Source: Dipteris shenzhenensis
Lineage: Eukaryota
Length of the DNA: 64,000 nt
Strand: one strand, 5' to 3'
Assembly: GCA_047967505.1 (NCBI GenBank)
Contig: CM106538.1
Every line of letters starts with the position of its first letter. Within the stretch, counting starts at the first letter, position 1. Below, piece after piece: positions 3,001 to 22,700 of the stretch. The position numbers and the translations under genes are program-made. The notes beneath the pieces were generated by a model, which worked only from the letters and a program-made list of their open reading frames with translations, searched no databases and was not told where the DNA came from.

Positions 3001-3829
3001 GTGGTGTTTTTGTGTGTAAAATTTTGGTTCAAAGGGGTCTAGTTTGGGTCCCAAACGGGCATGATACGAAGTGTTGAAGTAGGGGTAAAATTGGCCTTTG
3101 GGGGGGGGATTGGTCTTGAGGTTGGTGTGAATGGACTTTAAGTCCAACTGAGGGGTTTGAAGCAAGTTAATTCGAGTTAGTCTAACTAGCCTACAACCCT
3201 AACTACCCAATTACTATAACTAAGTAGTTACTTTAACTAACCTAACTACTTCCACTAACTAGAGTTAGTCTATTATAATTGAAGGTTAGTTAAGCTAAAC
3301 TAGTTGTTAGTAACTAACCTAGAGTTAACCTAACTAACCTAGGTAAAATCTAATCTAACCTAAGTTAATACTAACCTAACTATAGTCAGTTAGATGGTTA
3401 GATTACGTTTTTTTATAAATAATTATTATTATTATTTTTTTTTTTTAATCAAGGGGGGAGGGGGGGCGTCGGGCGGTGGCGCTGTTTAGGGGGGGGGAAG
3501 GTTTTCACGAATGGGGGGAAGGGTACTATGTGGAGGGGAAGGTTGCAGAGGGGGATGGATGAGGAGGATGCTGGAGCAAGAAGGATGGGTGGGGAGGAAG
3601 GAGATGTGGCGGAAGGTGGTGCATCGAGCAGAGGAGGTGTTGGAGGGGAGGGGCGAGCGCCACCACCTATTTGGACAATTTCGCCTCGGGTGGGCCGCCA
3701 TTGGCACATCGGCGTCAATCGGCTGGTGGCACTGTCGCTGTGGCAGGCAGTGCCACACCGCGTGCGGTTGCGTTTGCAGAGCAAGGGCCTAAGCCCTTGC
3801 TATTAGAAGGTAAGGAGGGCAGTTGACTA

Positions 3830-3870
3830 AGAGGAGAGGGGGTGGGGGGGAAGAGAGAGAGAAAGGGGGT

Positions 3871-3903
<33 letters not shown>

Positions 3904-3938
3904 GGTAGAGAGAGAGAGAGAGAGACAAGAGGGAGGGG

Positions 3939-3983
<45 letters not shown>

Positions 3984-4380
3984 AGGGGGGGAAAGAGGGG
4001 GGATTGGAATAGAGGGGGGTGGAGAGGGGGGGGAGGAGATGGAGGAGGGGGGGGGGAGGGTGGAGGGGTTGGTGGTGGAGAGGGGGGGAAGGGGGTGGAG
4101 ATGGAGGAGGAGGGGGGGAAGGGGAAGCGGGGGGTGGATGGAGGGGGAGGGGTGGAGAGGGGGGAGGGGGGGGGGAAGGGGGGTGGTGGTGGAGGGGGAG
4201 ATGGAGGAGGGGGGGATGGAGGGGATGGTGGAGGGGGTGGGGGTGGGGGTGGGGGGGGTGAGGGGATGGTGGTGGAGGGGGGAAATGGTGGAGGGGGAGA
4301 GGAGTGGAGGGAATGGTGGTGGAGGGGGGAATGGTGGAGGGGGAGGGGGGTGGAGGGGGGGATGGAGGGGGAGGGGAAAC
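3830..4380. repeat. Extreme G/A-rich low-complexity tract with (GA)n and many G-runs, in the retroelement leader
   Basis: About 550 bp of mostly G and A with scattered T and almost no C on the + strand. Confidence 0.95.
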
Positions 4381-5162
4381 AAAAACTTGACGGACGGAAA
4401 ACTTTAACGAAAATCCAAAGGGAGAAAGAGATGATCACCTGAACGCTCTCCAAGTCTTTCTTGATGTAACGGGATTGTTGAGGACGAATGGACGGTGGTT
4501 GGATGGCTAGGTTATCACTGCTGCGAGATGGGCTCAAAGTAACTCACCATGAGAGGATGGGAGTAGGGTGGTGGTCGATGGAGAGGGAGGAGTGTCTTGC
4601 GTAGGGCTCAGAATGGGGAAGAGGATGGAGGCAAGATGTGAAAGAAAAAGTATGAGAGGGATGGATGCACTTTTATAAAGAAGGAGGGGAAGCTATGGAA
4701 TTTAGTCAAACACATGTGCACCTTTGAATTTGTCCATGTTTGAGTAGTCAAATACATGTGCAGCTTTGAATTTGTCCATGTTTGACTAGGGAGGTGGTTT
4801 TAATTTTTCTTTTGGGTTATGGCATTTAGAACCTTTAAACATTGATTGCCCATAACTTTTGGTGGTTGTGTCATAATGTGCTCTCATAAAAAGGAGAAAT
4901 GTTCAGAATTTCAAGCTCTACACTTTGACGACCATCACATAGTCTCATTTATTCCTCAAGGTGCTGTTTTTCCCAAAAACATGCATTTTCCTAAACCAGT
5001 AACGAAGAGCTTCAATAAAGTTTTTTTTTTTTGATTTTTTCTATTGGGGTTGGAAAAATTTTAGCTCTCCTAGCTCTTGAGTGATATGTTCGCAAAAGTT
5101 CGAAGTAGTTTGTTTTTTACACATACCTACATATGTTTACTCGTTACTTGAGAAGCTAGTCT

Positions 5163-5179
5163 TCCCAATAGCGGCGCCA
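5163..5179 (-). promoter_or_regulatory. Primer-binding site, degenerate tRNA-Asp-like
   Basis: Minus strand TGGCGCCGCTATTGGGA next to the LTR end; resembles the Athila-type TGGCGCCGTTGCCGGGG with transition changes. Confidence 0.6.
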
Positions 5180-5181
5180 AA

Positions 5182-5561
5182 TGTTGGCTCTTTCCCACGG
5201 CTTCTGTAGGAAGAGCACGGTATTCTCAGTATGCAGGAATCTGAGGCTTTTTGTCAGCTACATATATATATCAGGGCTATCGTTTGTAGTATATGTGTAG
5301 CTTAGGACCTCGAGTCGTATTTTGGTGAGAGACTAGGCTTTAGTGTAGTAAGCAAACATAGTGCATGGATGTGTGAAAGGAACGTGCATCATCATGGTTG
5401 AGGTAATGAAGGCTTTTGCCTTCATTAGGGGTTGAGGCGTTTAGGAGGAGTTTAAGGGTTAGAGGGAAATCCAAGGTTTAGAAAGAGGTTCCAGAGTTTA
5501 GAAGAGGACATGCTTTTGGACGTGGAGTGCAACGAAGCATGGACACTTGACCTCTCCATCA
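5182..5561 (-). repeat. Putative 5' LTR of the gypsy element
   Basis: Minus strand reads TGATGG...CCAACA (imperfect terminal inverted repeat). PBS follows after 2 nt. An unrelated reading frame resumes right at 5562. The partner LTR is outside the window, so the upper boundary is inferred. Confidence 0.6.
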
Positions 5562-6325
5562 TCTTCCTGCAAAAGTATCCATGGGTGGAGGGAAGGCAAG
5601 GAGATTCCTATCGAACCACAATCTCGACAAAGACAAGCGTACATTGTCTCAAAGTAGTTTGGGTTAGGAATATTAGAAAGCATTGTATGAATGCATGACC
5701 AATAAGGCTTCTCATCCTCAAATAGCAACTTTGAGAGCTAAAATATGGACAAAGGTAGATGCATTGATAAGATTGCTTCGCCAGGTTCAAATCGTTGAGA
5801 TGTATTATGAAAGGTTCAGGATGGCTGTGAAAGTTTATGCAATTAATGGTGAAAGCATGGGGGGAGTCGCACATTACGCATTACATGGTAATCTTGGCAC
5901 CATCGTAATATTTAGCACTTGCATTATAAAAACTTTTTGTTGCTGAAATGATGCTCATCATGTTTGCAGCATATTCTCTATGCACACGGACCATGGTTTG
6001 TACAAAATTGGGGCCCTTTGTCCATTTGGAATACACGTCATGGAGAAGAAGCACTATAGAGCCAAGGCAGCCTACTTCAAGAACTCAACGCATGGTGGTG
6101 GTGTCACTTGTAGCAATGCATTGCATGAGATGTTCGACTCGTTTTTTAGATGTTTATTAGGTAGGATTTTGAAGTCTAAAAAGGCAAAGGCATCAAAACT
6201 TGCAAAAGCAGTTCAAATTATATCAAAGAATAGAAGGCATAATGCTTTGTAAAGCATCCATAGGGAGTCAAGGAGTCACACGTTGGTTGCAAGCTAGAGT
6301 GAGAGAAGGGAGGAGACGGGTCTAA
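5562..6325 (+). pseudogene. 3' half of a Transib/RAG1-like (possibly Chapaev/CMC-related) DDE transposase pseudogene, with one GT-AG intron (5888-5969)
   Basis: Manual translation: LPAKVSMGGGKARRFLSN...LRAKIWTKVDALIRLLRQ...F(fs)MVKAWGESHITHYM|HILYAHGPWFVQNWGPLSIWNT(fs)MEKKHYRAKAAYFKNSTHGGG. This parallels RAG1 MNGNFARKL...[31 protein letters not shown] (HxxxxH, then P+2, G+9, W+14, E+20). The 3' end coordinate is approximate. Confidence 0.7.
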
Positions 6326-6592
6326 CCAGCAAACAACAAAAGCTATGGTGTAATTGTATACAGTTATGAAATGAATATCTTGCTTATTTTGACCACAATT
6401 TGTGTACTCACTTTTGAATATCTTGCTTATTTTGACCATAATTTGTGTGCTCACTCTTGGAGTCCAAGGTCTGTGTGAGGTAACGAGGTTGGGGAAGGTG
6501 GGGACAAGGTGGAGGAGGGGGATGAGAAGGGAGGGGCACAGGGCGGGGCAAGTGGGGGGGAGTGGTAGCAAGGGTAGGGGAAGGGAGGGGAC

Positions 6593-7091
6593 ATGGTACC
6601 TATGCCCATAAATAGGATAAAGCAGACGCCAAGGAAGCGGCATCCCAAAAAAGGACAAAGCTCAAGACATCCATGAGAGGGGGATTCGAAGGAGGATCGG
6701 TGGAAAGAAGAGCAATGCAAGAAGTTCAAGGCAGACAAGAGGTCATGGAACCATGTTCACATACCTGTACAGCCTCCACCAAGAGTCAAGAAGCCATACA
6801 GAGCAAAGCCAGGAGTGCAGGCCCTAAGGGAGATCAAATAGATGCAAAAGACCACCGACAATCTGATCCCGCATGCTCCCTTCCAACGTGTGGTATAAGA
6901 GATAGCACAGGGACAATGTACGATTAAGCATAGAAGCTATGGGGGCACTCTAGGGGGGTGTGAAGCAAGTCACCACCTCTCTTTTAGAGGATGACAACTT
7001 GTGTCCCATCCACGCAAAGCATGTCACGATCATGGACAAGGACATGGCTCTAGTGAAGCGGCTACGGATGGACCCAAGCTTGAAGCCCTAG
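6593..7091 (+). pseudogene. Divergent histone H3-like pseudogene (H3-type tail motif, long insertion, full histone fold)
   Basis: Frame from 6602: MPINRIKQTPRK...[44 protein letters not shown]. Frameshift near 6910, then [53 protein letters not shown]. Collinear with H3 ARTKQTARK...GVKKPHRYRPGTVALREI...[29 protein letters not shown]. Stops at 6674, 6839, 6896 and 6951. Confidence 0.9.
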
Positions 7092-7281
7092 AATCTCTTT
7101 GAGCCCACCACCCAGGACTTAGACTACCCCCTGCCCTTAAAGGCACAATCTTGTATCTGAGGCCCAAGGGCCAATATTTTTTAATAAAACATATCTACAT
7201 TTTGTACACTATCGCATTGTTGTGAATTCTCCATGTTTATGACTAAAGCTACTATTCATTGTAATGTCTTTTGAATTCTAC

Positions 7282-7502
7282 CAAATCCTGGAGGAATTTC
7301 ACCGTGGCACAGAAGGGAAAAGTGTCTGAGACATCACGAGGAGCCCAAAATGCCCTAAACCCACCACGGCACAAAATTGGGCATTTTGGCAAGTCCATAA
7401 TGCCCAAATTCACACCATGATGGGTTTAGGGCATTCTAGGCTCCTTGCGATATCCTTGACACTTTTCCCTTCTACGCCACTATGAAATTTCTCCAGGATT
7501 TG
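7282..7502. repeat. Long inverted repeat / hairpin: two ungapped 108-bp arms with a 5-nt loop
   Basis: 7282-7389 matches the reverse complement of 7395-7502 with 21 differences by manual count (about 81% identity). Confidence 0.95.
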
Positions 7503-7519
7503 ACAAAAATGAACTTTGG

Positions 7520-10500
7520 ATACCCAGAATTGGTGAAAATCACCGTGTCAAAAATGTGTGTGTTGATGGGGGAGCTACATGTAATATCATGGTGCCCCGA
7601 ATCATGAAGAAATTGAATTTGAAATGTACAAGGCGTTCCTCCACTCGAATCAAGGTAGCAGATGGTCGACGACTCGCCACCCTAGGAGTCATTGAGGATT
7701 TGCCCATCACTGTCAATGGGTTGGCCACCATTGTCAATTTCTATGTAGTGGACATTGAAGATACAGGCAGGAGTTACCCAACCATACTCGGGAGACCATG
7801 GTTGAGAAAGAGTGATGCAGTCAGCTATTGGAAGACAGGACACATGTCTTTTGGTGCTTCTAAGGAGAAGATCCCAGTGCAACCCGGTGCCATGGAACCA
7901 GAAGAAGAAGAGGAGCAAGACAGTGATACTCTCTCATCCTCAGTGTCTGAATCAATGGAAGAATCAAATGGGGGGGAGGAATTCTCAGAGGAGGAAGTTT
8001 ACATGATGGAGGTGTCTCCGACCCCGCCACCTGCAGAAAAGGTAACAGCTAGTCCTCAACAACTTGAATCTATGTTTTCCCCAGACCTCACTCCAAGTGA
8101 GAAAGACGAGTTCCTAGAAATGTTCAAAGATTTCCCTAACCTCTTTGCAACTAGCTACCACCACCTTCGTCATGTGACTGCCATAGAGCACAAGATAGAG
8201 CTGAAGCCTGATGCAAAGCTTGTGGCTCAGAAGTATCGAAGATTAGGGCCCCTGCAGACCGATGCTTTGCGCTCGGAGTTGCAGAAGCTTGTAGAGGCTG
8301 GGTTTATTGTTCCGATTCACAATACTGAATGGGTTTCACCAGTGGTAGTCACCCCAAAGAAAAACAACAAGTGGCGGGTCTGCATCGACTATAAGAAACT
8401 CAATGCAGCCACCAAGAGGGATCATCATCCTCTGCCCTTTCAAGACCTCATTCTTGAGAAGGTAAGTGGTCATGAGATGTATACTTTCTGTGATGGTTAC
8501 TCTGGGTTTTATCAAATCAGAATTGCCAAAGAAGATGTGCTTAAAACCACATTTGCCACACCCTGGGGGACATTTGCATTCAAAGTAATGCCATTTGGCC
8601 TCACCAATGCTCTTGCTACCTTTCAAAGATTTATGCAGATGGTGTTTGCTCCTTATTTGGGGGATTTCTTGGAGGTGTTTTTAGATGATTTTTGTATATT
8701 CTCGTCACGTAAGGAGCACGTCATGAAGGTTAGATTGGCCTTCCAAAGGGTCAATGATGCAAATGGCTGTCTCAACCCTGAGAAATGCACCATTGGAGCC
8801 ACTCAAGGGAGGTTAGTGGGACATATTGTCTCATCCGAGGGCGTCAAGCCTGACCCCGAGAAGGTAGAAGCCATCCTCAAGCTCTCCCCACTTACAACCA
8901 AACGTCAGGTACGCTCATTTGTCAATCTAGCAGGATGCTATCGCCGCTTCATTGATCAATATGCTACTTTGACACGACCCATGACTATGCTATTAAAAGA
9001 TGGGGTTGATTTCTCTTGGGATGAGGATTGTGATCATGGGTTTGCACAAATCAAGAATGCTCTGGCTTCAGAACCCATTCTACGCAATCCAAATTGGTCA
9101 AAGACTTTCTATATCAATCCTGGGTTTGGTGAGCACACTCTGGTAGGTATTCTTCTCCAGCAAGGGGAGGATCGGTTCATGTATCCTGTTCGATTTGCTT
9201 CTCGACAATTGCTCGACACTGAGCGACACTATTCAGAGGTTGACAAGCATGCCTTGTCTTTGGTGTTTTGCATTGAGAAATTTAAGCATTATGTGGCGGG
9301 AAAGTCCTCCATTATACTCACTAGCACTGGTCTTGCAAAGCAGGTTCTTCAATCACCAAATCCTATGGGCCAGTTGACCAAATGGATGGCAGTTCTACAA
9401 GAATATGATTTTTCTTTCAAAATTGTAAAAGGGGGTTGTTCCAACTTGAAGAATGCTTTGATTGATTTAGAGGAGTGCCTTGATGTAACCCTTGTAGCAG
9501 CCATAGAAGTTGGGGATCCATGGTATGGTGGTATCTACAGGTTTCTGACTACTTTCTCCTTTCCTCCAGAAAGTATTAGCTACGAGAGAAAGAAGATCCG
9601 CAGAGATAGTAGGTGCTACACCCTCCTTGATGGGGTGTTGTACCGTCAAGGCATGGATGGTGGGCTACTAAGACGGGCCATTGATGCAGATGAAGTGCCT
9701 AAGGTATTGAAGCATTATCATGATGGATTTTGTGGAGGCTAATATGCCAGTGACTATACAGCTAAGAAGATTTTACATGCTGGATACTATTGGCCGACCT
9801 TGTTCAAGGATGTCACTTTGTATTGCAAAACCTGTGAACCATGCCAATTCTTTGGTAAGAAGAATTTGCGTCTTGGGCAACATCACCCAATGATGTCCAT
9901 CCATCCGTTTCAAAAGTGGGGAATAGATTTTGTCGGGCCCTTGCCGGTGACTGCCCACAAAAAGAAGTATCTTTTGGTAGCCACTCAATATGTCACTAAG
10001 TGGGCTGAAGCTATCGCCATCCCCGCTGCAAATGGTAAGGCAGTTTCAAATTTCATATTTGAACGTATCTGCACAAGGTTTGGGACACCCATGGAGATTG
10101 TCTCTGACCATGGGAGTCCATTCTTAAATGAAGTAATGGAGTTACTCATGGATCACATGGGTATTGATCATCACACTTCTAGCATCTATTATCCGGCATC
10201 CATGGGTCAAACAGAGCGGACCAATGGCCTCCTTTGTAAAACCCTGGGAAAAATGGCCATAGGGAACAGGAGCCAATGGGATCAAAAGGTCACTAAAGCC
10301 GTGTGGGCTTACAACATCACTCATAAACATCTACAGGTCACACTCGTTTTGAGTTGGTGTATGGTACTGAGGCCGTTTTACCACTAGAGATAGAGATTCC
10401 AGCTTTGAGATTGACACAAGAACAGAGGATGACAGAAGATGAACATGTAGAGGCCATATTGGTACAACTTGAGAAGTTAGATGAAACCCGACGTCTTGCA

Positions 10501-12456
10501 CTACACCAAACAGAGGTCCAAAAGAATCGACAAAAGGCCCGCTTTGATGCTAAGATTCGCAAGGGATGGGAAAGACACTTTGATGAGGGGGATGTTGTGC
10601 TATGCTTTGATAACAGATTGGACCACCAAATGGATAAGAAGTTTCTGCCACTGTGGACTGATCCATACAAAGTCATCAAGGAATGGGTCTGTACAAGTTC
10701 AGGAGCTGCATGAACCATATGGCAAGAAGGTGATCAACAAGCGTTACCTCAAGCCTTTCTTTGTGCATGATGGACCCAGGCATGGAAATGCTATGCATTC
10801 CCTGCCTGGGGGGGGGGGGGGAATTGTTATGGATAAAATTGTCTAAGGAAAAAGGCATTAATATGTGTGTGTGTTTGTATATGTGGCAATAGTATAATAA
10901 AATATGGTGTGCATAGGGCCCAGGGTTGAGGTGGCAGGGCATGACCATGTGCCACCCTTCCACGTAAGAGGACCCATAAGGTGTGTTGTACATAATCCAT
11001 GATAGTAATATCATAAAATGTAAGGTGGCATGGCTCCTCCATGTGCCACCCCTCCACCTAGGCTGCATTTAGTGAGATATGGCTCAAAGTCCATGGGAGA
11101 AGTAATATAAAATAGGTGGAGATGGATATTATATTGAGTTATTCCCTCCATATGGGATAGGCCCATGTGAGGGAGGTATAGAAGGTCCAAGAGAGCAAGT
11201 TAAATAATGGGAAAAGTAGGATGAGGTGGCAAGATTCCTTGTGCCAACCCTCCACTTGTCCTCCTAGAGGTTTGAACATATTATAAAATTGGGAAGAGAC
11301 CAAGGGAGTATCATAGACTTGAGATATGGGGCTTGATTTATGTGGAAAATTGAGGCCAAGGGTTGTCGCACACAATTGAGAGTGCATAACCGCCTAGCCC
11401 ACATGGGAGACTTTTCCACATACACCATGCATGTGGGAGGATGCATTAATTGGGAGACCCCTCTTTTGGCTATAAAAGGAGGGGGCTATTCCTTGATGAG
11501 ACACGCTCATTCTTGTAAAGCCACCTAGCTAGTACTTTGATATTTCCCTCTCATCCTTTCAAATAAAGTATGGTCCTCTTCCCTTGATGTCTCCATCTTT
11601 ACATTCCTCCTCCTATCATGTACATGCTTCTCCTCCCCCCTCTCCCTTTCCCCTTGTGTCATAGTCTCCCTCTTCATTTCCTCCCCTTCTAATTCCTTTT
11701 CCCCTCCCATGAAACGTTTCGCCCTCACGATCTCCTTTCCTCTATGGCCCTCGAGCGTCGCCATGCTTAGCCTCTAGCCTCTGGTCTTGATTTCTTTTTT
11801 GGCTAATAGTGTTCATATGTTGCTTACAAATTGTCCTTCACAAGAGGTTACTACATGCTTCTAAATTAGCATGTGGCACATATGGCGTGGCATTATGACG
11901 TCTACGATTGGCATGATAATGAGCTAGCTATTGATGATGTGGCCACTCTACCACATGGCAATTTTATGACCTAACCTTATCTCTAACCTAATATACCATG
12001 TGTTAATTTCTTGACAAACTAAGGTTTGTAATGGAAAGGAAGCTATGGACTTCTGCAAGATCTTCAGCTTTGTTGATGATGAGTGTTTCTCATTCTTTCA
12101 TCCACTTCTAGCCTAGGGCCCTATTTTGTGTTTGGGTTGGGTTTTTGTTGTTTGTGTTGTAGAAGTAACGTCCTGCTTGTATTGCTTGAGCATCTGTCAC
12201 TTTTGATGTGTGTCACTTGCCATGGTTATTGTGGGTCTCGCGCTAGTGCGCTATCTATCTTTGGCTTAGTCAGCTTGCAGGTTGAGCTTATGTTGTGGTC
12301 TGTGTATGCTGCACCACTAGTTTAATTTGTCTGGTTGCAACTACCTAGTGTTTGATTTCTTTTGTTGTCTTTTATGTAGGACTTCATTGTTCGGCCAGCT
12401 TGTGTTTTGTTCATCCATTGACCGTGTCTTGCTCTGAGAATATTTTATGGATAACA
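7520..12456 (+). mobile_element. 5'-truncated Ty3/gypsy non-chromovirus element: pol, PPT and putative 3' LTR
   Basis: PR-RT-RH-INT order. G-run PPT at about 10808-10823. Putative LTR 10825-12456 bounded by TGTTAT...ATAACA, with TATAAAA near 11471. No gag or 5' LTR visible. Confidence 0.85.
7556..10846 (+). pseudogene. Gypsy pol polyprotein (protease, RT, degenerate RNase H, integrase)
   Basis: CVDGGATCN protease; VMPFGL and FLDD RT motifs; HHCC integrase zinc finger interrupted by stop 9740-9742; WGIDFVGP and SDHG core; frameshifts after about 10330. Confidence 0.92.
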
Positions 12457-13357
12457 ACCTACCTTTTGCTGCTATATTGCTCATTAGGATCTTTGACAAT
12501 GGTTACCAGAAGGAAACTCACAAAATAGAAGTGAAATATTTTAGAATGATGGAGAATGGATGTGCCACTTTGGCAGGCTAGCCGTGCGGTGCATCATGAA
12601 AGACACTTGCAAAAGGTTAGACCATTGCCTCCTCACACAAAGTGCAGAAAAAGACCATTTCTGTATGAAGTAGAGTGGCAAATAAAGTTGGGTGCATATA
12701 TGGCCTTGCCACAAACCCTTGAAATATGAGGACATTGCATAGTCATTTCCCAACTTGAGGCCCTTTTCCTACTCGGATTGGGCAAACCAGTGAAAAATTG
12801 TTGCAATCCATTAACAAGGGATGTGTGTAACTTAATCCCATTGTCATGCCAAGGTTAGGGAGGGAAGTAAAAGCATGATTTTGTGGGTGAAAAGGAGCAA
12901 TGGGGTTTTAAGGGTAAGGGAAAGTGTTGGGAACAAAATAGGTTAAGGAGTCCTTTTTGTTTGCAACCTACTAGGAAATTATAATAGTGTTTTTGACATT
13001 TTTATTGAGACATATATGCTAACACTTATATTAACTTTGAAAATTTTCTAGAAACCTTTTCTTCCAAGGAATGCCTAAGTAGACTTGTATTTGATGGATG
13101 TGTTTTGAGGAGAGAGGGAAAGCCGGAAGGCAAAAGGGTTTTGGGAGAATGGAATGCTACACAGTGATGGGAGACATGGCAAGGGATGGGGGATAGGGGT
13201 TGGAGTTGGAGTTGGGTTGTTGATTATGGATAAGAGGGTGTGGTTTGGAATGTCATTTTACTTACATAATCAAATTGTACTTCTTCATTTATACTTCCTT
13301 TTCCCATTTTTACAGGCATTTTGGTTCCTTTGTATTTCAACAAGTATACAATAACAA

Positions 13358-13363
<6 letters not shown>

Positions 13364-13395
<32 letters not shown>
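13364..13395. repeat. (GA)n microsatellite
   Basis: Seen directly. Confidence 0.95.
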
Positions 13396-13397
<2 letters not shown>

Positions 13398-14449
13398 TTA
13401 AAGTATGGGTCAAGTAACAACAGTGGTCCTTCCAATGAATACCCACTCAAGGTTGAATTTTTGGGATGTGGGAAGTGGCTGTTTCTTTTTTCTTTTTTTT
13501 AAATAATAAAATTGTGGAATTTATTAGGGGGGTGGTCAGCCCACGAAAAAATACCAAGGATACAAAATTCGGTCCTAGAAGGGCTACCCGCCGCCCTAGA
13601 CTGTGCTGCATGCAGCTACCACCCTCTAGCTTGATCTCGTGGTTGACTACAAACTTATCAACACTTCACTAACTAGTGGATCCTTTTCTGCGATGATATG
13701 GCCCTCTACTGCATTTTCCCCGCATAACTTGCTTGTCTACCACCCACATAGATTTTGTAAGTGTAGGCTCCCATGAGGGAAAGCTTATCTTATAAGACCC
13801 ATAGCAGCAACCATAGGCTCTTATGAGTTGGCATGAAAGCCTTGAATGTTAGTGCGTCCAACATTTGAACCCACGAAGTGAGCATCTACATCCTCTCTTT
13901 TATATTAGTAAGTGTAATATATAGTGTTTTTTTTAAAGGCCCCCCCAAGAAAACACTCAAACATTTGGCCACTGGCCACAACTCATATATCTTTAGACAT
14001 AGTATCATGACATTTTTTTGCACTATTTTCCATGTACTTATGCCTAGAATAATGCAGTCTAGTGTAGTGTATTGCAAAATTTGGCATTTTTGGTGACAAA
14101 ATGGCTTTTAAAACCCATTTTATCAAACTTTTGATGATATTTTTCATTTGGGGCTAGTTAACATGACATTTTGCCCAATATTCCTTTGGGTGCCTAAATT
14201 TTGCCAAGTTTCACCCCAAACACTAGTAATTACTAATATAAGCTATGAAGCAATGCTTTTTCCCTTCTCAACAAGCATGATATAAGGTCTGAGGCAATGT
14301 TTAATTTTTTCATGGACTTTTTAGTAGCCAATGCTACCATCCTTTACACTTTAATTGACCTAAGTCAATGAAACTTTAATTGACCTAAGCCACCCTTGTT
14401 GCTACTTGCCTCCTTGATTTCAAGAAAGGGCTATGTAGCCATCATGGCC

Positions 14450-15615: not shown

Positions 15616-15885
15616 TTTGGCCATCGGGGCGCTGGATGCACTGGTCACTTTGCATGACCAATGGGTTGCCTCGCTATTTGTATGTAGCCTCTGTATGACG
15701 ACGTTGTGAGCTATTGCGCGAGTGTGGCTCGAGTGGTGGTGGGGTGTCGAGTTGGCCACCCGGGTGCTGGATGCACTGGTCACTTTGCTTGACCAATGGG
15801 TTGCCTCGTTGTTTCTATGTAGCCTCTCTACAATGAGTTTGCGAGCTATTGCGCGAGTGTGGCGCGAGTGGCGGTGGGGTTGTGA
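15616..15885. repeat. Imperfect 135-bp tandem duplication in the upstream/promoter region of the threonine dehydratase gene
   Basis: GCTGGATGCACTGGTCACTTTGC...GAGCTATTGCGCGAGTGTGG begins at 15631 and again at 15766. Confidence 0.9.
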
Positions 15886-16153
15886 GGTGATCCATCTGCC
15901 GAGTTGGCCACCACATGCATGTGTGCGGGCACAGGCCCTAGCGCCCCGTGCCCCCCTCAACCGCCCCCGCCCCCGCCCCCTTCCCCCCTTTTTCGCCATA
16001 ATGTTGGTGCCACCAAGTGAAGTGTGTGGACTTTCAAACTGTGGAGAAATCTTCCAATTCTTGTGGAGTTGAGCAAAGAAAGCAATGGAGCTTGCAGGTG
16101 GTGGTCTTCTTCTTCTTCATCTTCTTGTAGATGTTGTTGCATAGATCAAAGCC

Positions 16154-16711
16154 ATGGAGACCTCCCTCTTCACGCTTCCCTGCTCCAAACTCCCTCACCA
16201 TCATCCTCACCCTCTGAGCTCTCTCACCTTCCTTGCCTCTCCATCTCCATCTCCATCTCCATTTCCATCTCCTTCTCGCCTTCCTTGCTGCTTCAGCCTC
16301 CACCATCACATCTTCCTCGCCAATTCTCCCGATCCTCCCCTTACCCGCACAGTTGATCCTCCTCCTCCTCCTCCTCCTCCTCCTTCCCTGCCCCTCTCGC
16401 GAGCTTCCTCCAATGGATCTGCCGCTGTTTCCCCCAATTGCCAGCCCTCCCAAACCATCTCGCCTCCTCAGCCTCTCCTCACATTGCCTCCTGACTCTTT
16501 GCAATACCAGCCTGGCTTTCTCGGTGCCATTTCTCCCCATACCGCCCCTCCCCACGCTCGCTCATCTCGTCAATCCGCCCTTTCGTACTTGACTCGCACC
16601 CTTTCTTCCAAAGTTTACGATGTCGCGATTGAGACCCCCTTGGAGGTGGCTCCCAAGTTGAGTGAGCGGACTGGGGCACACATTTTTCTCAAGCGAGAGG
16701 ACCTGCAACCG
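16154..16711 (+). CDS. OMR1: TD exon 1 (Ser/Pro-rich putative transit peptide plus N-terminus, to KREDLQP)
   Basis: [12 protein letters not shown]...FLKREDLQP, then GT donor at 16712. Start codon choice is inferred. Confidence 0.9.
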
Positions 16712-19700
16712 GTAATTTCAGCTCTGAGTACACTGAGAATTGTTCAATTCGTATGCGGGCGGTTTCGTGGTTCAAACTCTCGATGAATCGACATCTGCTG
16801 GCAGGTCTTCTCCTTCAAGCTGCGCGGTGCTTACAATATGATGGCAAATCTTTCGAGGGAGCAGCTAGAGCGAGGCGTCATCTGCTCTTCCGCTGGTAAT
16901 CATGCTCAGGGAGTTGCTTTAGCAGCCCGCAAACTGAATTGTGACGCCGTTATTGCTATGCCCGTGACGACTCCAGAAATTAAGGTTTAGCTTTTCAAAT
17001 GCTTAACGCCCATGCAGTTTTTTTTTTTTTTGCATTGGAGTGCAACCGAAAGCAGTACTCCCAAACTGGTGCTCATTGTTTTGTTTCGCACGATCTGCAG
17101 TGGAAATCGGTCGAAAGGCTAGGAGCTACCGTTGTTTTAATAGGAGATTCATATGATGAAACGCAATCATATGCAAAGCAAAGAAGTTCTGCAGAGGGGC
17201 GAGTCTTCGTTCCACCTTTCGATCATCCCGACGTAATAGCAGGGCAGGGAACAATTGGGATGGAGATTATCCGACAATTTTCTGGACCCTTACATGCTGT
17301 ATTTGTTCCTGTCGGGGGTGGTGGCCTTATCGCTGGCATTGCGGCTTATATGAAACAAGTGCGGCCAGAGGTAATCTGCGGCGCTGCATTTTTAATACCT
17401 GTCCCTTGTCGTTTTTAAAGAATGTCAGAAAATGTTGGGTGGTGCACATTGTTTTCCGGGAATTACAAATAAGCTTCTCCTTTTGGTTTTTGACCACCTT
17501 TGAATTAGGTCGAATAAGGGTGGTTGAGAAGTTTTGAAATGTTAGACGCACTTCTGCAGACTATGGCCATCGTGGAAGCTAGTACAAATAAATTAAATGC
17601 TGCTAAGGGATGTGAGCAAAAATCTTTATCTTGGAGACCACATATCCCAATATTAAAATACTTTTTCAAAAATGCAATATTATAAAATACTGTAACAAAA
17701 TCTAATGTTGCTAAGGGATGGTTGGCTGTACATCTGTTCAATGCACTGTGTATACAACTGGCTGCCGCAGACTGCACACGCTATATACAAAGCGATGTAA
17801 ACGTGTATGGGCAAGGTGCTGTGTAGATACGTATACTTCAGAAAACTGCTATATAAGACGTTGTGTATAGGCAGCAATTTAAAGGTATGACAAGTAGATA
17901 TCTCTTGTAGTTGGAGATCTTAGATTCTTTGCTACTTTGGTTTTGTGGAACAACTGTTAGATATACTATGCTTTGAAGACGTGTGTTTGGAGACATATGA
18001 AATGATCGTGAAACCATGCATCAAGTGTGGTTACAGTAATACTTGGTTTTGATGGCAATAGCAATTTGAGAATTACAGACGGAGCAAATATAAACTGGAA
18101 CTCTTAAACATATGATGTCTTATTACAACCGTTAGGAGGGAAGGATAACCAACACTGACGTAGAAGTACTCAAAAAAACCTTGACGAGTCCTAGGATGAT
18201 AGCAAAATTGTGCTAGATGGCTGTGCTTGCTACATGCCCGTGAATTTGCAATCATCAACTTGAAACACATTGTAGGAACAAGATCCAATCACCATAGAGC
18301 CACAACTGAGGGTCCAACAGCTAGACAACATTCCAATTGGCAAAAAAAAGTGCCCGGGGTCTGCATACAGGCCAGAAACAGACCCCAGAGCAGCAACCCA
18401 TGATTTTTAAAGAGATGCCCTGAGGAAGATGGCAATTTTGTAGCAAGAGGTAGAACAGGTAGGAAAGAGCACGAAACCATATGTGCTTTCACTCTAAAAG
18501 GCTGAAACTGAAATCGCTATTAGGGAAACATGGTGTTAGCAGCAAGACAGGAGCACACCCTAAGCAGAGATTGCAATTTAGGAACAGGAGGATGTCGACG
18601 CACACAGGTGCTGGGCAAGGTGATGGATGAAGGGCTGGAGCAAGGAGGAGCAAGAACAAGCTAGAGAAACAACTCATAATGTACGCTAGTGAGAAAACTG
18701 GAATTAGAACATGAATATAAAGATACGAAAGCTGAAAAGCTCAAGAAAGCAACGAAAAGCTAAAATTTTCACTTTGTATTTAGTTTTAAAGTGAATCAAA
18801 TACTCTAACCTACATAGGAGCTTGCACACAAGACCTAGAACAAACCCTAAGCTTGCTAGCACATAACTTAAGTAGACAACTTGGATCCAACCCAAACTTA
18901 AACCTATAGTTAGGTCTTGATGTGCACTATCTAATGTACAATTAGAGTGATCAAGGTGATTTTGTAGACTATAAGAAAAACACTTGTGGTTCCGAAGGAT
19001 GTTCTTCTTAAATCTAATTTATTTCACTTTGACCTTGTTGAAAGCGTCATGGCTTAGCACACCAAGGCTAAACTCCAAGCCCTAGTATTACAGTGTCAGA
19101 GACTAATTGAAGGTGTAAATTCTCTAGAGGTATGGAAACCCTGCGTGTATGTTCACCCAAATTGCCGTTGGTGTGTATAGTATTTGTCCAAATACTTGCC
19201 AATGTGTGTGGGTGGATCTCGAGGCCATTCAAAGCGTATGTGCATTTGGATCTGCAAATATGCCACGTTGAAACGCTCGCTAGAATCTCCAAGGAAGTAT
19301 CTAGTGACGCATATGGAAGTCTTTGAGGAGACCATTTAGAGAGCATGGCTGAAGTAGATATAACCAAAAGAGTCAAAGAAGAATCATGCCTCTCATAAAA
19401 TACCCGAGGCCCCGAAAGAGAGAGCTAAGCCATCGAGCCCCAAGTCATGAAGAAGGTAGAAGGAACAAAAGTGCTCAATAGACTAGCAATCCCCCTCTAG
19501 ATGATCCTTGCCTATGTGCAGGCCTATCAACAATGTTGAATAAACTCCTCAGCAGAGAGGCAACAAGGGCAAGTAGTGGGTGCTCCGAACTGGGACCTCC
19601 ACTGGTTCACTACAATCCCTCCATGGATAGAAAGACAAAATATTCTTGAGGGAAATTTAGAGTGTCTCCAAAAGTATTTATGCAAGTGACTGCATCAATC

Positions 19701-22700
19701 CACTCCCACTCTCCCAGGTTCTACTGTAAATACTTTATGGGGACACCTCCATAGAGCGGATCCTAACCTAGGGGAATGTGATCCGAGTTAGGGTTTAGGT
19801 ACCATCTTGGAGCCATGACCTACAACCCTAATAGGATGAAAAACATCATTGATAAGGATATCCTAATCTCTAGACCTGGACAACTTGCCCCCTGAGTGAA
19901 CATCAGAGATCAAGGCATCTTATGTGAACGTCATAGTCCTACGACGCGTAAAGGCCCCAAGCCAAGTAGAGTGACAGTGAGGCTTGTCATTTGTATCAAC
20001 CCAATCCAAGGGTATGGCTGCATCAATCTGGTGAATTCTGCAATGAAAGAGGCAGGGGCAGATTGTAGGAAGGGGATAGAATTGGCAGCGCGTAAAGGCC
20101 CCAAGCCAAGTAGAGTGACAGTGAGGCTTGTCATTTGTATCAACCCAATCCAAGGGTATGGCTGCATCAATCTGGTGAATTCTGCAATGAAAGAGGCAGG
20201 GGCAGATTGTAGGAAGGGGATAGAATTGGCAGTAGGGAGAGAGATGAAGGGGGAGAAGGAGTGAGAAGTGAGGAAAGGAGGTAGAGGGAGAGGAAGAGAG
20301 AAGGGTGAGAGGAAGAGAGAGATAGAGAGAGATTGGGAGAGAGTGTAGGCAGCACGTATGTGGAAGGAGGGAGATGATTGGATTAGATGTCACATCCAAA
20401 AAGTCCACAATGATTGGTGGATGGCGAGTTATATAGTCTCTCCACATTTCCCACCTAAAAGGCCTCTAAAGGGCCTCTAAAATAGCCATATAGTCTCTCC
20501 ACATTTCCCACCAAAAAGGCCTCTAAAGGGCCTCTAAAATAGCCCTTCCCCCCCCTTCATTACAGCCATCCCTTCCCATAGAATTTTGCCCTCAAAATTT
20601 TACATTCTGGCTGTCTAAAAAGGTGCAGCAAACAGCAAAGTCCCTGCCACTTGATAAGATGCTCTATGTAGACCCTGTTTAGGAGCACATGGTCTCTGAA
20701 ACCCATGATGCGCTCCGGGATATAGAGGATGCGACCCTCCTTATCGATAGGTGGTAGCTGAGGAAGAACTTGGACATGTCGTCCTACATGCGGCTTCAGC
20801 AAGGACACATGGAAAACATTATGAATCTTGGAGGTACTGGTAGCTCCAACTCATACTCCACCTCTCCAACTTTGCGGATGATCTTGTAGGGAACCGTAAT
20901 ACCTGTAAGCAAGCTTCGTGCTGGTGTTACCTTTCAGCGAGGCATAACAGTTCTTATGGAGGCGTAAATGCACATAATCTCCTTCTTCAAAAGACAGATA
21001 CCTCCTGCGTTCATCCGCATACTTCTTCTGCTTGGCTTGGGCATCCTGCATATTCTTCTTAGCCAATCGCAGAAGGGCATCCATTCTTTCCAGGTCACTT
21101 CTTGCTTGCTGATTTTTCACAGCCATGTTTGCAATTAAAGGTGGCATCCCAACCTTGCATCCATACATTGCTTCAAAAGGGCTGATGCCAATAGAAAGGT
21201 GCTTGGTACTGTTGTAACAAAATTCAGCAAGAGCCAACCACTTATCCCAGGACTTATGTGTATCATGACAAAAGTGCCTCAAGTATTCGCCCACCCATTT
21301 GTTAATCCTTTCTGACTGTCCATCCGACTCAAGGTGGTAAGCAGTGTTAGGTGTGAGGAGAGTACCCATTGCTATGAATAACTCCTGCCAAAAGTGACCC
21401 ATAAATTTTGCATCTCTCTCACTGACAATTCCTGAGAGAAGCCATGATGCTTAAAAACATGCTCAATTAATTGCCAAGCAACGTGTGATGCTGAATACCG
21501 GGTCTTAGTGGGTATGAAGTGAGTCTGTTTTGTCATTATATCCACCACCACATAAATGCTATCCCATCCCGTCTCTATAGAAGGAAACCCTGTGATGAAA
21601 TCCATAGGTATGTGAGTCTATTTGCCTTCTGGAATAGGTAATGGCTGTAAGAGACCTGTGGGTAGCTGGCTGTGCACCTTATTCTGTTCGCAAGGCAAGC
21701 ATTCAGTGACATATTTAACCACGTCCCGCCGAATGCCTGTGAGAGATTGGGGAGAGAGAGAGAGAGCAAGAGAGAGTGAGCTAGAGAGCTGAAAGCTTGA
21801 GAGCTGAGTTGCAATAGAAGAGTGTAAAAGAGAACAACTAAAAGAGTAGAGATAAGGTTTTGTCCTAGTGACAAAACCTTAGTAGTCACTAACCATAGTT
21901 AGTGAACTAACTGCGGTTAGGGGGAAAAACCTCTTAAAGAGGGAAAAGTGCCCCTAACTAGCTTATTAAATTACATTGGTCATTGCTGAATTATATTTAT
22001 AATTCTAACACCCCCCTGCAGTGCCAATGTCATGTACAAGGCTGATCAATCACCAAACGGATATAAGTTCAGGGCACTGCGAAATGCCTCAAACTTTTCA
22101 CGTGGTAGTGCTTTGGTGAAAATATCTGCAACGCTGTCATGTGTGGACACAAAGATCATACTGATCTCTCGTGCATGCAACTTCTCTCTGACGTAGTGAT
22201 AGTGAACCTCAATGTGCTTCGTGCGAGCATGAAACACTGGATTCTTTGCCATTGCAATGGCACTCTGACTATCAGTGAGGATTGGAGAAGGACCCTCCAA
22301 AGACAGATGAAGATCAGCAAATAGACGTCGCAGCCAGACACATTCAACTATTGCTGTGAAAGCTGCCTTGTACTCAGCTTCACATGATGAGGTAGCCACT
22401 GTAGATTGTTTCTTGCTTAGCCAGGAAATGCAAGATTTACCCAAAAAGAAACAATTGCCACTAGTGAACTGCCTAGTGTCATAATCACCAGCCCAATCTG
22501 AATCACTGTAGGCATGCATCTGCAAGTCACCCCCTCGGGAAATAACAAGCCAAAAGACTTCGTGCCCTGCAAATAACGAAAGATGCGCTTAATTGCCTGC
22601 CAATGCATAGTTTTTGGGCTGTGCATGTACCTGCTCACCTGAGATACTGCAAACTGAATATTAGGTCTAGTGTTGCAGAGATATATGAGGCATCCAACAG

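What the first reader, a model, noticed from the sequence alone, without database searches (positions are those of the whole stretch)
6482..7091. Highly divergent histone H3 variant with a conserved K4/K9-like tail motif, a remodelled tail and a possible acidic N-terminal extension
Seen: RIKQTPRK (cf. ARTKQTARK) is retained, the K14-K27 region is replaced by a longer unrelated segment, and VKKP (K36/37) and the whole fold are kept. At the classical H3-vs-CENH3 diagnostic sites it keeps Q68 (PFQR) but has L at F84 and D at T107, so it fits neither class cleanly; loop 1 is obscured by the frameshift. The frame continues upstream as a Gly/Glu-rich stretch (NEVGEGGDKVEEGDEKGG) with two TAG stops. 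Inference: many changes are conservative (IQLARRIR to MALVKRLR), implying evolution as a protein before death rather than decay of a canonical H3 retrocopy.
Basis: partly seen in the sequence, partly recalled or inferred. Interest (0 to 1): 0.78.

Follow-up and report, generated by a model that had tools for sequence, protein, structure and literature searches.

The report
Dead copy of a long-tailed H3
This is a broken, non-functional copy of an unusual histone H3-like gene whose intact relatives, one of them from a fern, carry a long extra tail; it matters mainly as a pointer to that little-known histone family.

Summary
Window 6611-7091 (+) reads as a histone H3-type protein (Pfam Histone E=3e-7 and 1.3e-6 on two frames). 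It is broken by three internal stops in one frame, a +1 frameshift near 6911 and a fourth stop in the next frame. It is not a decayed canonical H3. The "unrelated" tail segment matches a tail motif (KKFK.D...W, then a proline run) shared by 16 H3-like proteins found. All are unnamed except one hypothetical protein of the fern Adiantum nelumboides. A tail-only profile built without the window hits this ORF piece at E=1.6e-4 among 1611 pieces; the next best is E about 1. The copy keeps 17 of 19 near-invariant H3 columns but only 5 of 30 variable ones, as intact variants do. The "acidic N-terminal extension" is a G/A-rich tandem repeat upstream of the family's start, not coding sequence. The neighbouring Ty3/gypsy pol is much less decayed, lacks gag and LTRs, and looks like a chance neighbour. 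Whether the family is the fern lineage's CENH3 stays open. The locus itself is dead, so interest is moderate.

The parts
6372..6457 (.). Two tandem copies of a 43-nt unit just upstream of the gene relic. Not coding.
   Evidence: the repeat finder family D2, 93% identity.
6486..6590 (.). Two tandem copies of a 54-nt G/A-rich unit. It is repeat DNA, not part of the histone reading frame.
   Evidence: the repeat finder D1, 71% identity. It is 70.6% similar to G-rich low-complexity DNA at 4085-4183. The frame is cut by two TAG stops. Relatives start at MARTKQ.
6611..6640 (+). Degenerate H3 N-terminus (NRIKQTPRKR), matching MARTKQTARK at the start of the intact relatives. The ATA at 6608-6610 sits where the relatives have their start Met. 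This alignment is an inference.
   Evidence: Translation. The pattern is unique in the window and absent from 200 shuffles. Family alignment A2.
6674..6676 (+). In-frame stop 1 (TGA), in the tail.
6704..6802 (+). Family-specific tail motif (KEEQCKKFKADKRSW...[10 protein letters not shown]) that replaces the K14-K36 part of a normal H3 tail.
   Evidence: A tail-only HMM built from 13 relatives without the window hits ORF piece 6677-6838 at E=1.6e-4 among 1611 pieces; the next best is E=1.1. Among 269 sequences searched, the window scores 15 bits and non-family proteins at most 9.9 bits.
6806..6910 (+). Alpha-N and alpha-1 of the histone fold ([33 protein letters not shown]), with in-frame stops TAG 6839-6841 and TAA 6896-6898.
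   Evidence: Pfam Histone E=3e-7, profile positions 23-67. phmmer hits to H3 proteins.
6911..6911 (+). +1 frameshift inside loop 1. The read-through loop is 2-3 residues shorter than in H3.
   Evidence: The two Pfam half-matches lie in adjacent frames. Alignment.
6912..7091 (+). Loop 1 to alpha-3 plus a short C-terminal extension (DNVRLSIEAMGAL*GG...[27 protein letters not shown]). In-frame stop TAG at 6951-6953, terminal TAG at 7089-7091.
   Evidence: Pfam Histone E=5.8e-6 and 1.3e-6. The C-terminal extension aligns with that of P0016 and P0025.
7183..7188 (+). AATAAA, 92 nt after the stop. A possible relic of a polyadenylation signal. No A-run follows it.
Evidence: Read directly in the sequence.
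7271..7513 (.). 243-nt palindrome (119-nt arms, 78% complementary, 5-nt spacer) between the histone relic and the retrotransposon pol. It marks the 5' break of the pol fragment. Not part of the histone gene.
   Evidence: the repeat finder I1. Single copy in the window.
7545..10710 (+). Neighbour, not part of the finding: a 5'-truncated Ty3/gypsy pol (protease, RT, RNase H, integrase) with one in-frame stop and one frameshift. No gag and no LTRs.
   Evidence: Pfam RVT_1 3.3e-24, RT_RNaseH_2 2.1e-22, rve 1.7e-13. No gag upstream. No LTR pair.

Best explanation
Window 6611-7091 (+) is a pseudogene: a dead, single, intron-free copy of a gene from a little-known family of H3-type histone variants.

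Intact family members have this layout:
- an exact H3 start (MARTKQTARK);
- a tail that is 200-290 residues long in the full-length forms, with conserved short motifs and a roughly 120-residue charged helix;
- a basic/proline motif (ERRKKFKND.PPWERR, then PPPPPP) in place of the K27-K36 part of H3;
- an H3 fold with CENH3-like traits.

The window copy descends from a short-tailed member of this family. P0016 and P0025 are its nearest relatives. It diverged from ordinary H3 while still under selection as a protein. It was then inactivated and picked up four stops, one frameshift and probably the loss of its start codon, mostly in a CpG-depleted, presumably heavily methylated, transposon-rich plant genome that is probably a fern's. 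It does nothing now.

Shown: the histone homology, the lesions, the tail-motif homology, the selective pattern of divergence, and the absence of any transposon frame around it.

Inferred: the host lineage, the mode of duplication (retrocopy or DNA copy), and what the parent protein did. My guess for the parent is a nucleosomal H3 replacement that pairs with H4, keeps the K4/K9 reading surface and lacks K27/K36, and may be the lineage's centromeric H3.
For: Histone homology and lesions
- Pfam PF00125 matches in two adjacent frames.
- All three kinds of stop codon interrupt conserved helices, so neither introns nor an alternative genetic code can rescue the frame.

The family
- An HMMER scan of 1.84 billion representatives with the N-terminal read-through gave 2635 hits at E<=1e-3, 13 at E<=1e-10 and none at E<=1e-30. 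No close parent is on record. The hits that extend into the tail (P0016, P0019, P0020, P0025, P0032) share the motif.
- A profile search added P0177, P0180, P0182, P0183, P0185, P0186, P0189 and P0190.
- Alignment A2 shows the common architecture.

Tail motif
- A 35-position tail HMM built from 13 members without the window hits window piece 6677-6838 at E=1.6e-4 of 1611 pieces; the next best is E=1.1.
- In the 269 sequences searched (268 H3-like proteins plus the window read-through) it recovers the 13 it was built from, plus 3 independent members (P0059, P0053, P0054). The window follows at 15 bits. Only four of the other 252 are listed at E<=1, the best at 9.9 bits.

Other shared features
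- GQSSR.P ahead of the motif, as in P0019.
- LIPHAPF.
- QVTTSL against QMATSL of P0016.
- A C-terminal extension [10 protein letters not shown] against RIRSDLALRH.

Selective divergence
- The copy keeps 17/19, 23/37 and 5/30 of columns conserved at >=95%, 80-95% and 50-80%.
- Intact variants give the same profile (P0016: 16/19, 24/38, 9/31; P0190: 18/19, 21/38, 5/31).
- Fisher p=6e-7. P(<=2 of 19 mismatches under uniform 46% decay)=0.0012.

Tree
- The window is sister to P0016 (SH-aLRT 58).
- Holding all 13 tail-motif rows together is not rejected (AU p=0.383).

Host
- One member is an NCBI protein of the fern Adiantum nelumboides.
- The window's transposons are plant-like.
- The window holds a threonine ammonia-lyase first exon behind a Ser/Pro-rich leader.
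- CpG o/e is 0.40-0.45 and TG+CA o/e is 1.24-1.33.
Against: - Over the fold alone the window copy is closer to canonical-like H3s (53-57% identity) than to the family (43-52%).
- It lies outside the well-supported core clade of ten long-tailed members (SH-aLRT 99). It sits in an unresolved cluster that also holds ordinary H3-like proteins. Its pairing with P0016 has weak support (58).
- The tail-motif score is modest (15-18 bits).
- The window copy lacks the family's 170-230-residue middle part. It is a short form or has suffered a deletion.
- No parent gene, no DNA of relatives and no host genome could be examined. dN/dS was therefore not computed, and the age and mode of duplication are unknown.
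- Four stops against only 2 of 19 changes at near-invariant columns is more nonsense than random mutation predicts. I attribute this to C-to-T bias at methylated sites, which is an inference.
Confidence: 0.8

Rival explanations
1. The parent family is simply the CENH3 (centromeric H3) of ferns and their allies, so the locus is a CENH3 pseudogene. This refines the best explanation rather than excluding it.
For: Core family members have several CENH3-type traits:
- A, S or T in place of Q68.
- I or V in place of F84. P0016 and P0020 have W.
- S or G in place of T107.
- Loop 1 one residue longer.
- A long tail.

P0016 scores almost as well against S. pombe Cnp1 (99 bits, ranks 11-12 of 176) as against H3.3 (103 bits). 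The clusters are low-copy, as expected of a cellular gene. From recall, not tested: land-plant CENH3s also begin like H3 and have a proline/alanine signature at the alpha-N/alpha-1 junction, as the window copy does.
Against: - The family profile's 60 best PDB matches are all H3.3/H3.1-type, none CENP-A.
- The tail holds several motifs conserved across members that share only about 40% identity, and an exact ARTKQTARK. That is unusual for CENH3 tails.
- The window copy itself keeps Q68.
- No verified plant CENH3 sequence was available for a tree, and localisation is unknown.
Confidence: 0.35
2. It is a neutrally decayed duplicate or retrocopy of the host's canonical H3.1/H3.3, and the odd tail is random drift plus small insertions.
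For: Identity over the fold is highest to canonical-like H3 proteins (53-57%). The copy keeps VKKP, Q68 and a recognisable ARTKQTARK relic.
Against: - The tail insert matches a family-specific motif at E=1.6e-4, in the right place and frame.
- Mismatches avoid invariant columns (2/19 against 25/30, p=6e-7). Neutral decay from a canonical H3 would not do that.
- The C-terminal extension is shared with P0016 and P0025.
Confidence: 0.04
3. The histone sequence was captured by, or belongs to, a transposable element. It could stand in place of gag in the adjacent Ty3/gypsy element, or be a transduplicated passenger like the hAT-borne H3L of Pyrenophora.
For: - It lies 450 nt upstream of a gypsy protease-RT-RNase H-integrase, on the same strand, where gag should be, and no gag is present.
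- Two relatives (P0020, P0059) read as frameshifted versions of intact members (my reading). That hints at repeated copying.
- There is a precedent for transposon-amplified H3-like genes (PMC3538342, passages read).
Against: - No LTR or TIR pair frames the locus.
- The pol has one stop and one frameshift in about 3.2 kb. The histone relic has four stops and one frameshift in 0.5 kb. They differ greatly in age.
- A palindrome sits at the junction, at the pol's 5' break.
- There is only one copy in 64 kb.
- Family clusters have 1-8 members, against up to 161 for copia proteins.
Confidence: 0.06
4. It is a live gene, read through recoding, splicing or editing.
For: None beyond the good preservation of invariant residues.
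Against: TGA, TAG and TAA all occur inside conserved helices, and there is a frameshift with no room for an intron. No nuclear code reads all three stops as sense.
Confidence: 0.01

Closest known systems
Unnamed long-tailed H3-like proteins: P0186, P0182, P0183, P0190, P0185, P0177, P0019, P0025, P0032, P0180, P0189, P0053, P0016, P0020, P0059, and NCBI MCO5577324.1, a hypothetical protein of the fern Adiantum nelumboides (P0054)
   Same: The tail motif KKFK.D...W plus a proline run directly before alpha-N. An ARTKQTARK-type start. IP.AP at the alpha-N/alpha-1 junction. A short C-terminal extension after alpha-3.
   Different: The window copy is broken. It lacks the 170-230-residue middle part with the long helix. 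It keeps Q68 and an ordinary CxIHAK core. It falls outside the core clade in the fold tree. Best identity is only 46-52%.
CENH3 / CENP-A (centromeric H3).
   Same: A long, divergent tail on an H3 fold. F84 and T107 are replaced. Relatives lose Q68 and lengthen loop 1 by one residue. P0016 scores 99 bits against S. pombe Cnp1.
   Different: The window copy keeps Q68. F84 is L rather than W. Loop 1 cannot be judged. The tail is conserved within the family and starts as a true H3 tail. The family profile prefers H3.3/H3.1 among solved structures. No localisation data exist.
Canonical plant H3.1/H3.3
   Same: The fold, VKKP, Q68 and the K4/K9 motif. 53-57% identity over the fold.
   Different: The tail is about 30 residues longer, with K14-K27 replaced by the family motif. 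There is a C-terminal extension. About 45% of fold residues differ, in the pattern of a selected variant.
Transposon-amplified H3-like genes (H3L on hAT elements of Pyrenophora tritici-repentis; PMC3538342, passages read; follow-up PMC6710886, search listing only)
   Same: A divergent H3-like gene occurring as extra, partly frameshifted copies in a repeat-rich genome.
   Different: Here no TIRs or LTRs enclose the copy. There is only one copy in the window. Relatives are low-copy.

Membership tests
Histone H3 fold (Pfam PF00125, H3 type) | Significant match to the core-histone profile over alpha-N to alpha-3 | tested here: met
   E=3e-7 (profile positions 23-67) and 1.3e-6 (positions 69-122) in adjacent frames. 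E=5.8e-6 on the C-terminal piece alone, 27.0 bits against a cut-off of 26.4.
Histone H3 fold (Pfam PF00125, H3 type) | Open reading frame able to give a protein | tested here: not met
   Four internal stops (TGA, TAG, TAA, TAG) and one +1 frameshift.
Canonical H3.1/H3.3 | Collinear 40-residue tail with K14, K18, K23, K27 and K36 | tested here: not met
   The tail from the ARTKQ relic to KPG is about 67 residues. The middle is replaced by the family motif.
Canonical H3.1/H3.3 | Near-identity of the fold to other H3s | tested here: not met
   Best 57% over 90 aligned positions.
CENH3 / CENP-A | Loss of Q68 in alpha-1 (feature as recalled) | tested here: not met
   The window reads PFQRVV. P0016 and P0020 also keep Q. 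The other aligned relatives have A, S or T.
CENH3 / CENP-A | F84 replaced, typically by W, and T107 replaced by A, C or S (features as recalled) | tested here: inconclusive
   The window has L and D, which could be post-mortem changes. P0016 has W and A. Core members have I/V and S/G.
CENH3 / CENP-A | Loop 1 longer than in H3 | tested here: inconclusive
   The frameshift lies in loop 1 and the read-through is 2-3 residues shorter than H3. Relatives have one extra residue.
CENH3 / CENP-A | Groups with verified CENH3s in a tree; localises to centromeres | not tested
   No verified plant CENH3 sequence could be obtained. Localisation needs an experiment.
Long-tailed H3-like family (tail-motif family, unnamed) | KKFK.D..PW plus proline-run motif directly N-terminal of alpha-N | tested here: met
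   Tail-only HMM without the window: E=1.6e-4 of 1611 ORF pieces. 15 bits against at most 9.9 bits for non-family H3-like proteins.
Long-tailed H3-like family (tail-motif family, unnamed) | H3-type start MARTKQTARK | tested here: met
   A degenerate relic NRIKQTPRK at 6611-6637, unique in the window and absent from 200 shuffles. The start codon itself is not preserved.
Long-tailed H3-like family (tail-motif family, unnamed) | 170-230-residue middle region with the NIF.NLG and TRTP motifs and a long helix | tested here: not met
   tblastn with 13 members finds no match to these parts anywhere in the window. The helix is seen in the P0186 model. P0016 and P0020 may likewise be short forms, but their contigs are short.
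Long-tailed H3-like family (tail-motif family, unnamed) | Membership of the family clade in a fold tree | tested here: inconclusive
   Sister to P0016 with support 58. Outside the core clade (support 99). One clade of all 13 rows is not rejected, AU p=0.383.
Processed pseudogene (retrocopy) | Lacks the parent's introns; poly(A) relic; target-site duplication | tested here: inconclusive
   The copy is continuous where the ORFs of two relatives break off: P0032 in loop 1 and P0054 after HAK. Those breaks need not be introns. AATAAA lies at 7183-7188, but no A-run or flanking duplication was seen. The parent gene is unknown.
Transposon-captured gene (transduplication or LTR-element passenger) | Lies between the element's terminal repeats and is amplified with it | tested here: not met
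   No LTR or TIR pair around 4400-14000. One copy in the window. The wider genome could not be tested.

The most novel reading that the evidence does not exclude
The relic is a fossil of an undescribed class of histone H3 variants in ferns, and perhaps in other seed-free plants, distinct from H3.1, H3.3 and ordinary CENH3. The class joins three things: an intact K4/K9 H3 start, a roughly 120-residue charged single helix, and a proline-rich KKFKND-PPW module that replaces the K27-K36 region. Such nucleosomes could be read at K4/K9 but could never be marked at K27 or K36. Broken copies (this locus, P0020, P0059) would then show that the family has been duplicated and lost repeatedly.
Probability: 0.35. 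Interest if true: 0.6.

Novelty: new variant of a known kind. Interest (0 to 1): 0.4.

Why it matters
The locus itself is inert. Its value is as a pointer. It led to about 16 H3-like proteins with a shared and unusual architecture: a true H3 start, a very long structured tail, a proline-rich module where K27 and K36 should be, and a CENH3-like fold. None has a functional name, and the one with an organism name comes from a fern.

Seven full-text searches found no description of this family. The supplements of the CENH3 survey PMC11687628, which may hold fern CENH3 sequences, could not be seen.

If these proteins are the fern CENH3, they would show that a centromeric H3 can keep a canonical K4/K9 tail and a conserved long tail. 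If they are not, they are a new H3 variant class in a lineage known for huge genomes and high chromosome numbers.

Tried and rejected
- Host genome: none is held. Copy number, the parent gene and dN/dS could not be done.
- Sequencing runs for 6300-7300: none was listed and no RNA holder was listed.
- Earlier findings of the scan: nothing for this genome, this sequence or the words tried. The 8 findings shown for 'histone H3' (of 126 holding the words) concern giant viruses and amoebae and do not bear on this locus.
- Rfam on the whole window: 0 matches, so no histone 3' stem-loop either.
- First word-indexed protein search with the N-terminal read-through: 1 hit among 2 candidates (P0002, an unrelated H3 variant).
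- Metagenome contigs scanned with two degenerate DNA patterns back-translated from family motifs: 0 matches each.
- Viral contigs scanned with the family alignment: 56 loci. All match only the fold (residues 265 or later of P0186), and none has the tail motif.
- ESM Atlas: the pol points to Streptophyta-rich clusters. P0186 gives only generic histone clusters at 0.77-0.78.
- Pfam on eight family members: only histone-fold families pass their cut-offs.
- AlphaFold2 model of P0186 with 13 sequences: mean pLDDT 68. The long helix 106-227 is confident, and the histone fold is poor as a monomer. It was not sent to fold search because a lone helix gives meaningless matches.
- AU test for window + P0016 + P0025 as one clade: not finished in the time limit.
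- No complex prediction with H4 was tried. No H4 of the host was available.
- Gag search in three read-through frames of 4400-7600, and domain search in 10300-13300: nothing but the histone.
- Literature: the listings and passages read give no description of the family.
Full report
**What is there**

Reading 6400-7200 in three frames shows an H3-type protein on the + strand.
- One frame reads NRIKQTPRK (from 6611).
- A tail of about 55 residues follows, then [41 protein letters not shown].
- After a +1 shift near 6911, the next frame reads [58 protein letters not shown].

The internal stops are TGA 6674-6676, TAG 6839-6841, TAA 6896-6898 and TAG 6951-6953. Pfam's core-histone profile matches both halves: E=5.8e-6 on the last 45 residues alone, and E=3e-7 and 1.3e-6 on the two frames of a 3.2-kb read-through.

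All three stop codons fall inside conserved helices, and the frameshift leaves no room for an intron. The locus is therefore a pseudogene under any known nuclear code. It is the only H3-like sequence in the 64 kb (tblastn with 13 relatives).

**The 'acidic extension'**

The stretch 6486-6590 is two copies of a 54-nt G/A-rich unit at 71% identity. It is preceded by two copies of a 43-nt unit at 6372-6457. It resembles G-rich low-complexity DNA 2.3 kb upstream (70.6% to 4085-4183). G/A-rich DNA gives Gly/Glu/Lys/Arg in any frame, the frame is cut by two TAG stops, and the intact relatives begin at MARTKQ. I conclude that it is not part of the gene.

The ATGs at 6593 and 6602 are probably fortuitous. 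The relatives' start codon aligns with ATA at 6608-6610 (inference).

**Relatives**

No host genome is held, no sequencing run was listed, and the scan has no earlier notes on this genome. A word-indexed search with the N-terminal read-through (P0001) found 1 protein among 2 candidates.

The exhaustive HMMER scan of 1.84 billion representatives found 2635 proteins at E<=1e-3, 13 at E<=1e-10 and none at E<=1e-30. No close parent is on record. The informative hits are those whose alignment runs into the tail: P0016, P0019, P0020, P0025 and P0032. They share with the window a motif of the type E.RKKFKND.RPW followed by a proline run, directly before alpha-N.

A profile search gave 3809 hits among 8000 scored candidates, of which 120 were listed. 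It added P0177, P0180, P0182, P0183, P0185, P0186, P0189 and P0190. The high-scoring named plant entries in that list are tandem duplications of ordinary H3 (for example P0158 and P0161) and are not relatives of interest.

Alignment A2 shows a common architecture:
- MARTKQTAR at the start, in five members;
- short conserved motifs (AV.AAQ; NIF.NLG..; TRTP);
- a Glu/Arg/Gln-rich stretch, which the AlphaFold2 model of P0186 draws as one helix of about 120 residues with pLDDT above 90;
- the basic/proline motif;
- an H3 fold, then a short extension after alpha-3.

Pfam sees only histone-fold families in them.

**Is the tail match real?**

I built a 35-position HMM from the tail motif of the 13 aligned relatives, leaving the window out.
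- Against all 1611 stop-free pieces of at least 25 residues in the six frames of the window, it hits 6677-6838 at E=1.6e-4. The next best is E=1.1. The hit lies in frame and directly upstream of the fold.
- Against the 269 sequences searched (268 H3-like proteins plus the window read-through), it scores the 13 it was built from at E<=5e-13.
- It finds three further proteins not used to build it: P0059 (3.6e-17), P0053 (1e-7) and P0054 (8e-7).
- The window follows at 15 bits, E=2.9e-4.
- Only four of the other 252 proteins are listed at E<=1, the best at 9.9 bits.

Other shared details are GQSSR.P ahead of the motif (as in P0019), [13 protein letters not shown] against QMATSL of P0016, and the C-terminal [10 protein letters not shown] against RIRSDLALRH of P0016.

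**Limits of the family assignment**

Over the fold alone the window copy is 53-57% identical to canonical-like H3 proteins and 43-52% to the family.

For the tree I started from 269 sequences. Of these, 223 had a single fold domain, and 155 covered at least 90 profile positions. That filter dropped the truncated or frameshifted P0020, P0032, P0054 and P0059. I thinned the non-family rows to under 80% identity, which left 63 rows and 98 columns.
- Ten long-tailed members form one clade (SH-aLRT 99).
- The window, P0016 and P0025 sit in an unresolved cluster with ordinary H3-like proteins.
- The window pairs with P0016 with weak support (58).
- Forcing all 13 tail-motif rows into one clade costs 9.6 log-likelihood units and is not rejected (AU p=0.383).
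- A second test (window + P0016 + P0025) did not finish.

The window also lacks the 170-230-residue middle part of the long forms. It descends from a short-tailed, less derived member of the family, or it has lost that part.

**Neutral wreck or former protein?**

I classed the fold columns by conservation among 154 H3-like proteins. The window copy matches the consensus as follows:

| Column conservation | Window matches |
|---|---|
| >=95% | 17 of 19 |
| 80-95% | 23 of 37 |
| 50-80% | 5 of 30 |

Intact variants give the same profile: P0016 16/19, 24/38 and 9/31; P0190 18/19, 21/38 and 5/31; P0025 19/19, 26/37 and 11/32.

Mismatches at invariant against variable columns differ with Fisher p=6e-7. 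If the observed 46% divergence had fallen evenly, two or fewer mismatches in 19 columns would have probability 0.0012. Decay since death is modest.

Four stops are then more than random mutation predicts. The region and the whole window are CpG-depleted (o/e 0.40 and 0.45) with excess TG+CA (1.29 and 1.24). Several lesions are the kind that C-to-T change at methylated sites produces: CAG to TAG at the conserved Q, and CGT to CAT at the conserved R of HAKR. I take that as the likely cause (inference).

**Host and neighbourhood**

One family member, P0054, is NCBI MCO5577324.1, a hypothetical protein of the fern Adiantum nelumboides (Polypodiales). All the others are unnamed Logan or ENA records in clusters of 1-8 members.

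The window carries copia and gypsy elements typical of plants. The best relatives of a copia pol are unnamed metagenome proteins (66%), and named seed plants reach only 42-46%. The window also holds the first exon of a biosynthetic threonine ammonia-lyase behind a roughly 140-residue Ser/Pro-rich leader. A fern or another seed-free plant is a reasonable guess for the host. It is not shown.

**The gypsy neighbour**

The relic lies 450 nt upstream of a Ty3/gypsy protease-RT-RNase H-integrase on the same strand, where gag would be. No gag is found. I still read this as chance, for these reasons:
- No LTR or TIR pair frames the region.
- A 243-nt palindrome sits exactly at the pol's 5' break.
- The pol has one stop and one frameshift in about 3.2 kb, against four stops and one frameshift in 0.5 kb for the relic.
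- The family is low-copy, unlike transposon proteins, whose clusters reach up to 161 members.

A precedent for transposon-borne H3-like genes exists in Pyrenophora (PMC3538342, passages read). Its defining features are not met here.

**What the family is**

Core members replace Q68 (A/S/T), F84 (I/V) and T107 (S/G) and lengthen loop 1 by one residue. P0016 has W at the F84 position.
- P0016 scores 99 bits against S. pombe Cnp1, against 103 bits for H3.3.
- The family profile's 60 best solved-structure matches are all H3.3/H3.1-type.
- The tail is conserved and starts as a true H3 tail.

I could not bring verified plant CENH3 sequences into the session. I put the chance that this is the fern CENH3 at about one in three. 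The chance that it is an undescribed H3 variant class is similar.

Seven literature searches and passages of PMC11687628, PMC5809374, PMC8566409 and PMC9210943 gave no description of it.

**Mode of origin**

The copy is continuous where two relatives' ORFs break off: P0032 in loop 1 on a 20.8-kb contig, and P0054 after HAK. An AATAAA lies 92 nt past the stop. There is no A-run or target-site duplication, and those breaks need not be introns. Retrocopy against DNA duplicate remains open.

Two relatives look like frameshifted copies of intact members: P0020 of P0016, and P0059 of the core type (my reading). Dead copies of this family may be common, or those short contigs may carry errors.

**Verdict**

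This is a real and correctly observed H3-type pseudogene. It is not a decayed canonical H3. It is a relic of a short-tailed member of a low-copy, unnamed, fern-associated family of long-tailed, CENH3-like H3 variants. It has no acidic extension, and there is no evidence of transposon capture. The locus is inert, and the family it points to deserves a look.

Noticed in passing
window 7271-7513: A 243-nt palindrome (119-nt arms, 78% complementary, 5-nt spacer) sits exactly at the 5' break of the gypsy pol fragment. It is single-copy in the window. It could be a hairpin-forming MITE-like element or a rearrangement scar.
   Followed up: partly
window 7545-10710: A Ty3/gypsy pol (protease, RT, RNase H, integrase) that is nearly open, with one stop at 9740-9742 and one frameshift near 10300-10387. 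It has no gag, no LTRs and no chromodomain detected. It is a young but truncated element.
   Followed up: partly
window 21738-27697 and 27718-34852: Two complete LTR retrotransposons lie 20 nt apart. One is a copia on the minus strand (273-nt LTRs, 97.8% identical; gag, RVT_2). The other is a gypsy on the plus strand (409-nt LTRs, 99.0% identical; RVP_2, RNase H).
   Followed up: partly
window 16145-16786 (+): A host gene exon: the N-terminus of a biosynthetic threonine ammonia-lyase (NCBIfam E=5e-15; PDB 8y1j and 3iau) behind a roughly 140-residue Ser/Pro-rich, transit-peptide-like leader. The ORF leaves the homology after LKREDLQPV, presumably at an intron.
   Followed up: partly
window 3430-4400: Nearly 1 kb of G-rich low-complexity DNA (GGGGAGG / GAGA type; GC skew up to 0.45). 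It is preceded at 3190-3400 by a CTAAC-rich stretch. The G/A-rich repeat in front of the histone relic resembles it.
   Followed up: no
window 19945-20232, 15617-15886, 60049-60202: Short tandem duplications: 144 nt twice at 100% identity, 135 nt twice at 86-88%, and 79-nt copies offset by 75 nt at 100%. All lie inside or beside long ORF-like stretches.
   Followed up: no
proteins P0020 and P0059 (relatives, not in the window): Both read as frameshifted versions of intact family members. In each, the residues after the break are what the neighbouring frame of the conserved alpha-2/alpha-3 coding sequence would give. Broken copies of this histone family therefore occur elsewhere too, or those short contigs carry errors.
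   Followed up: partly
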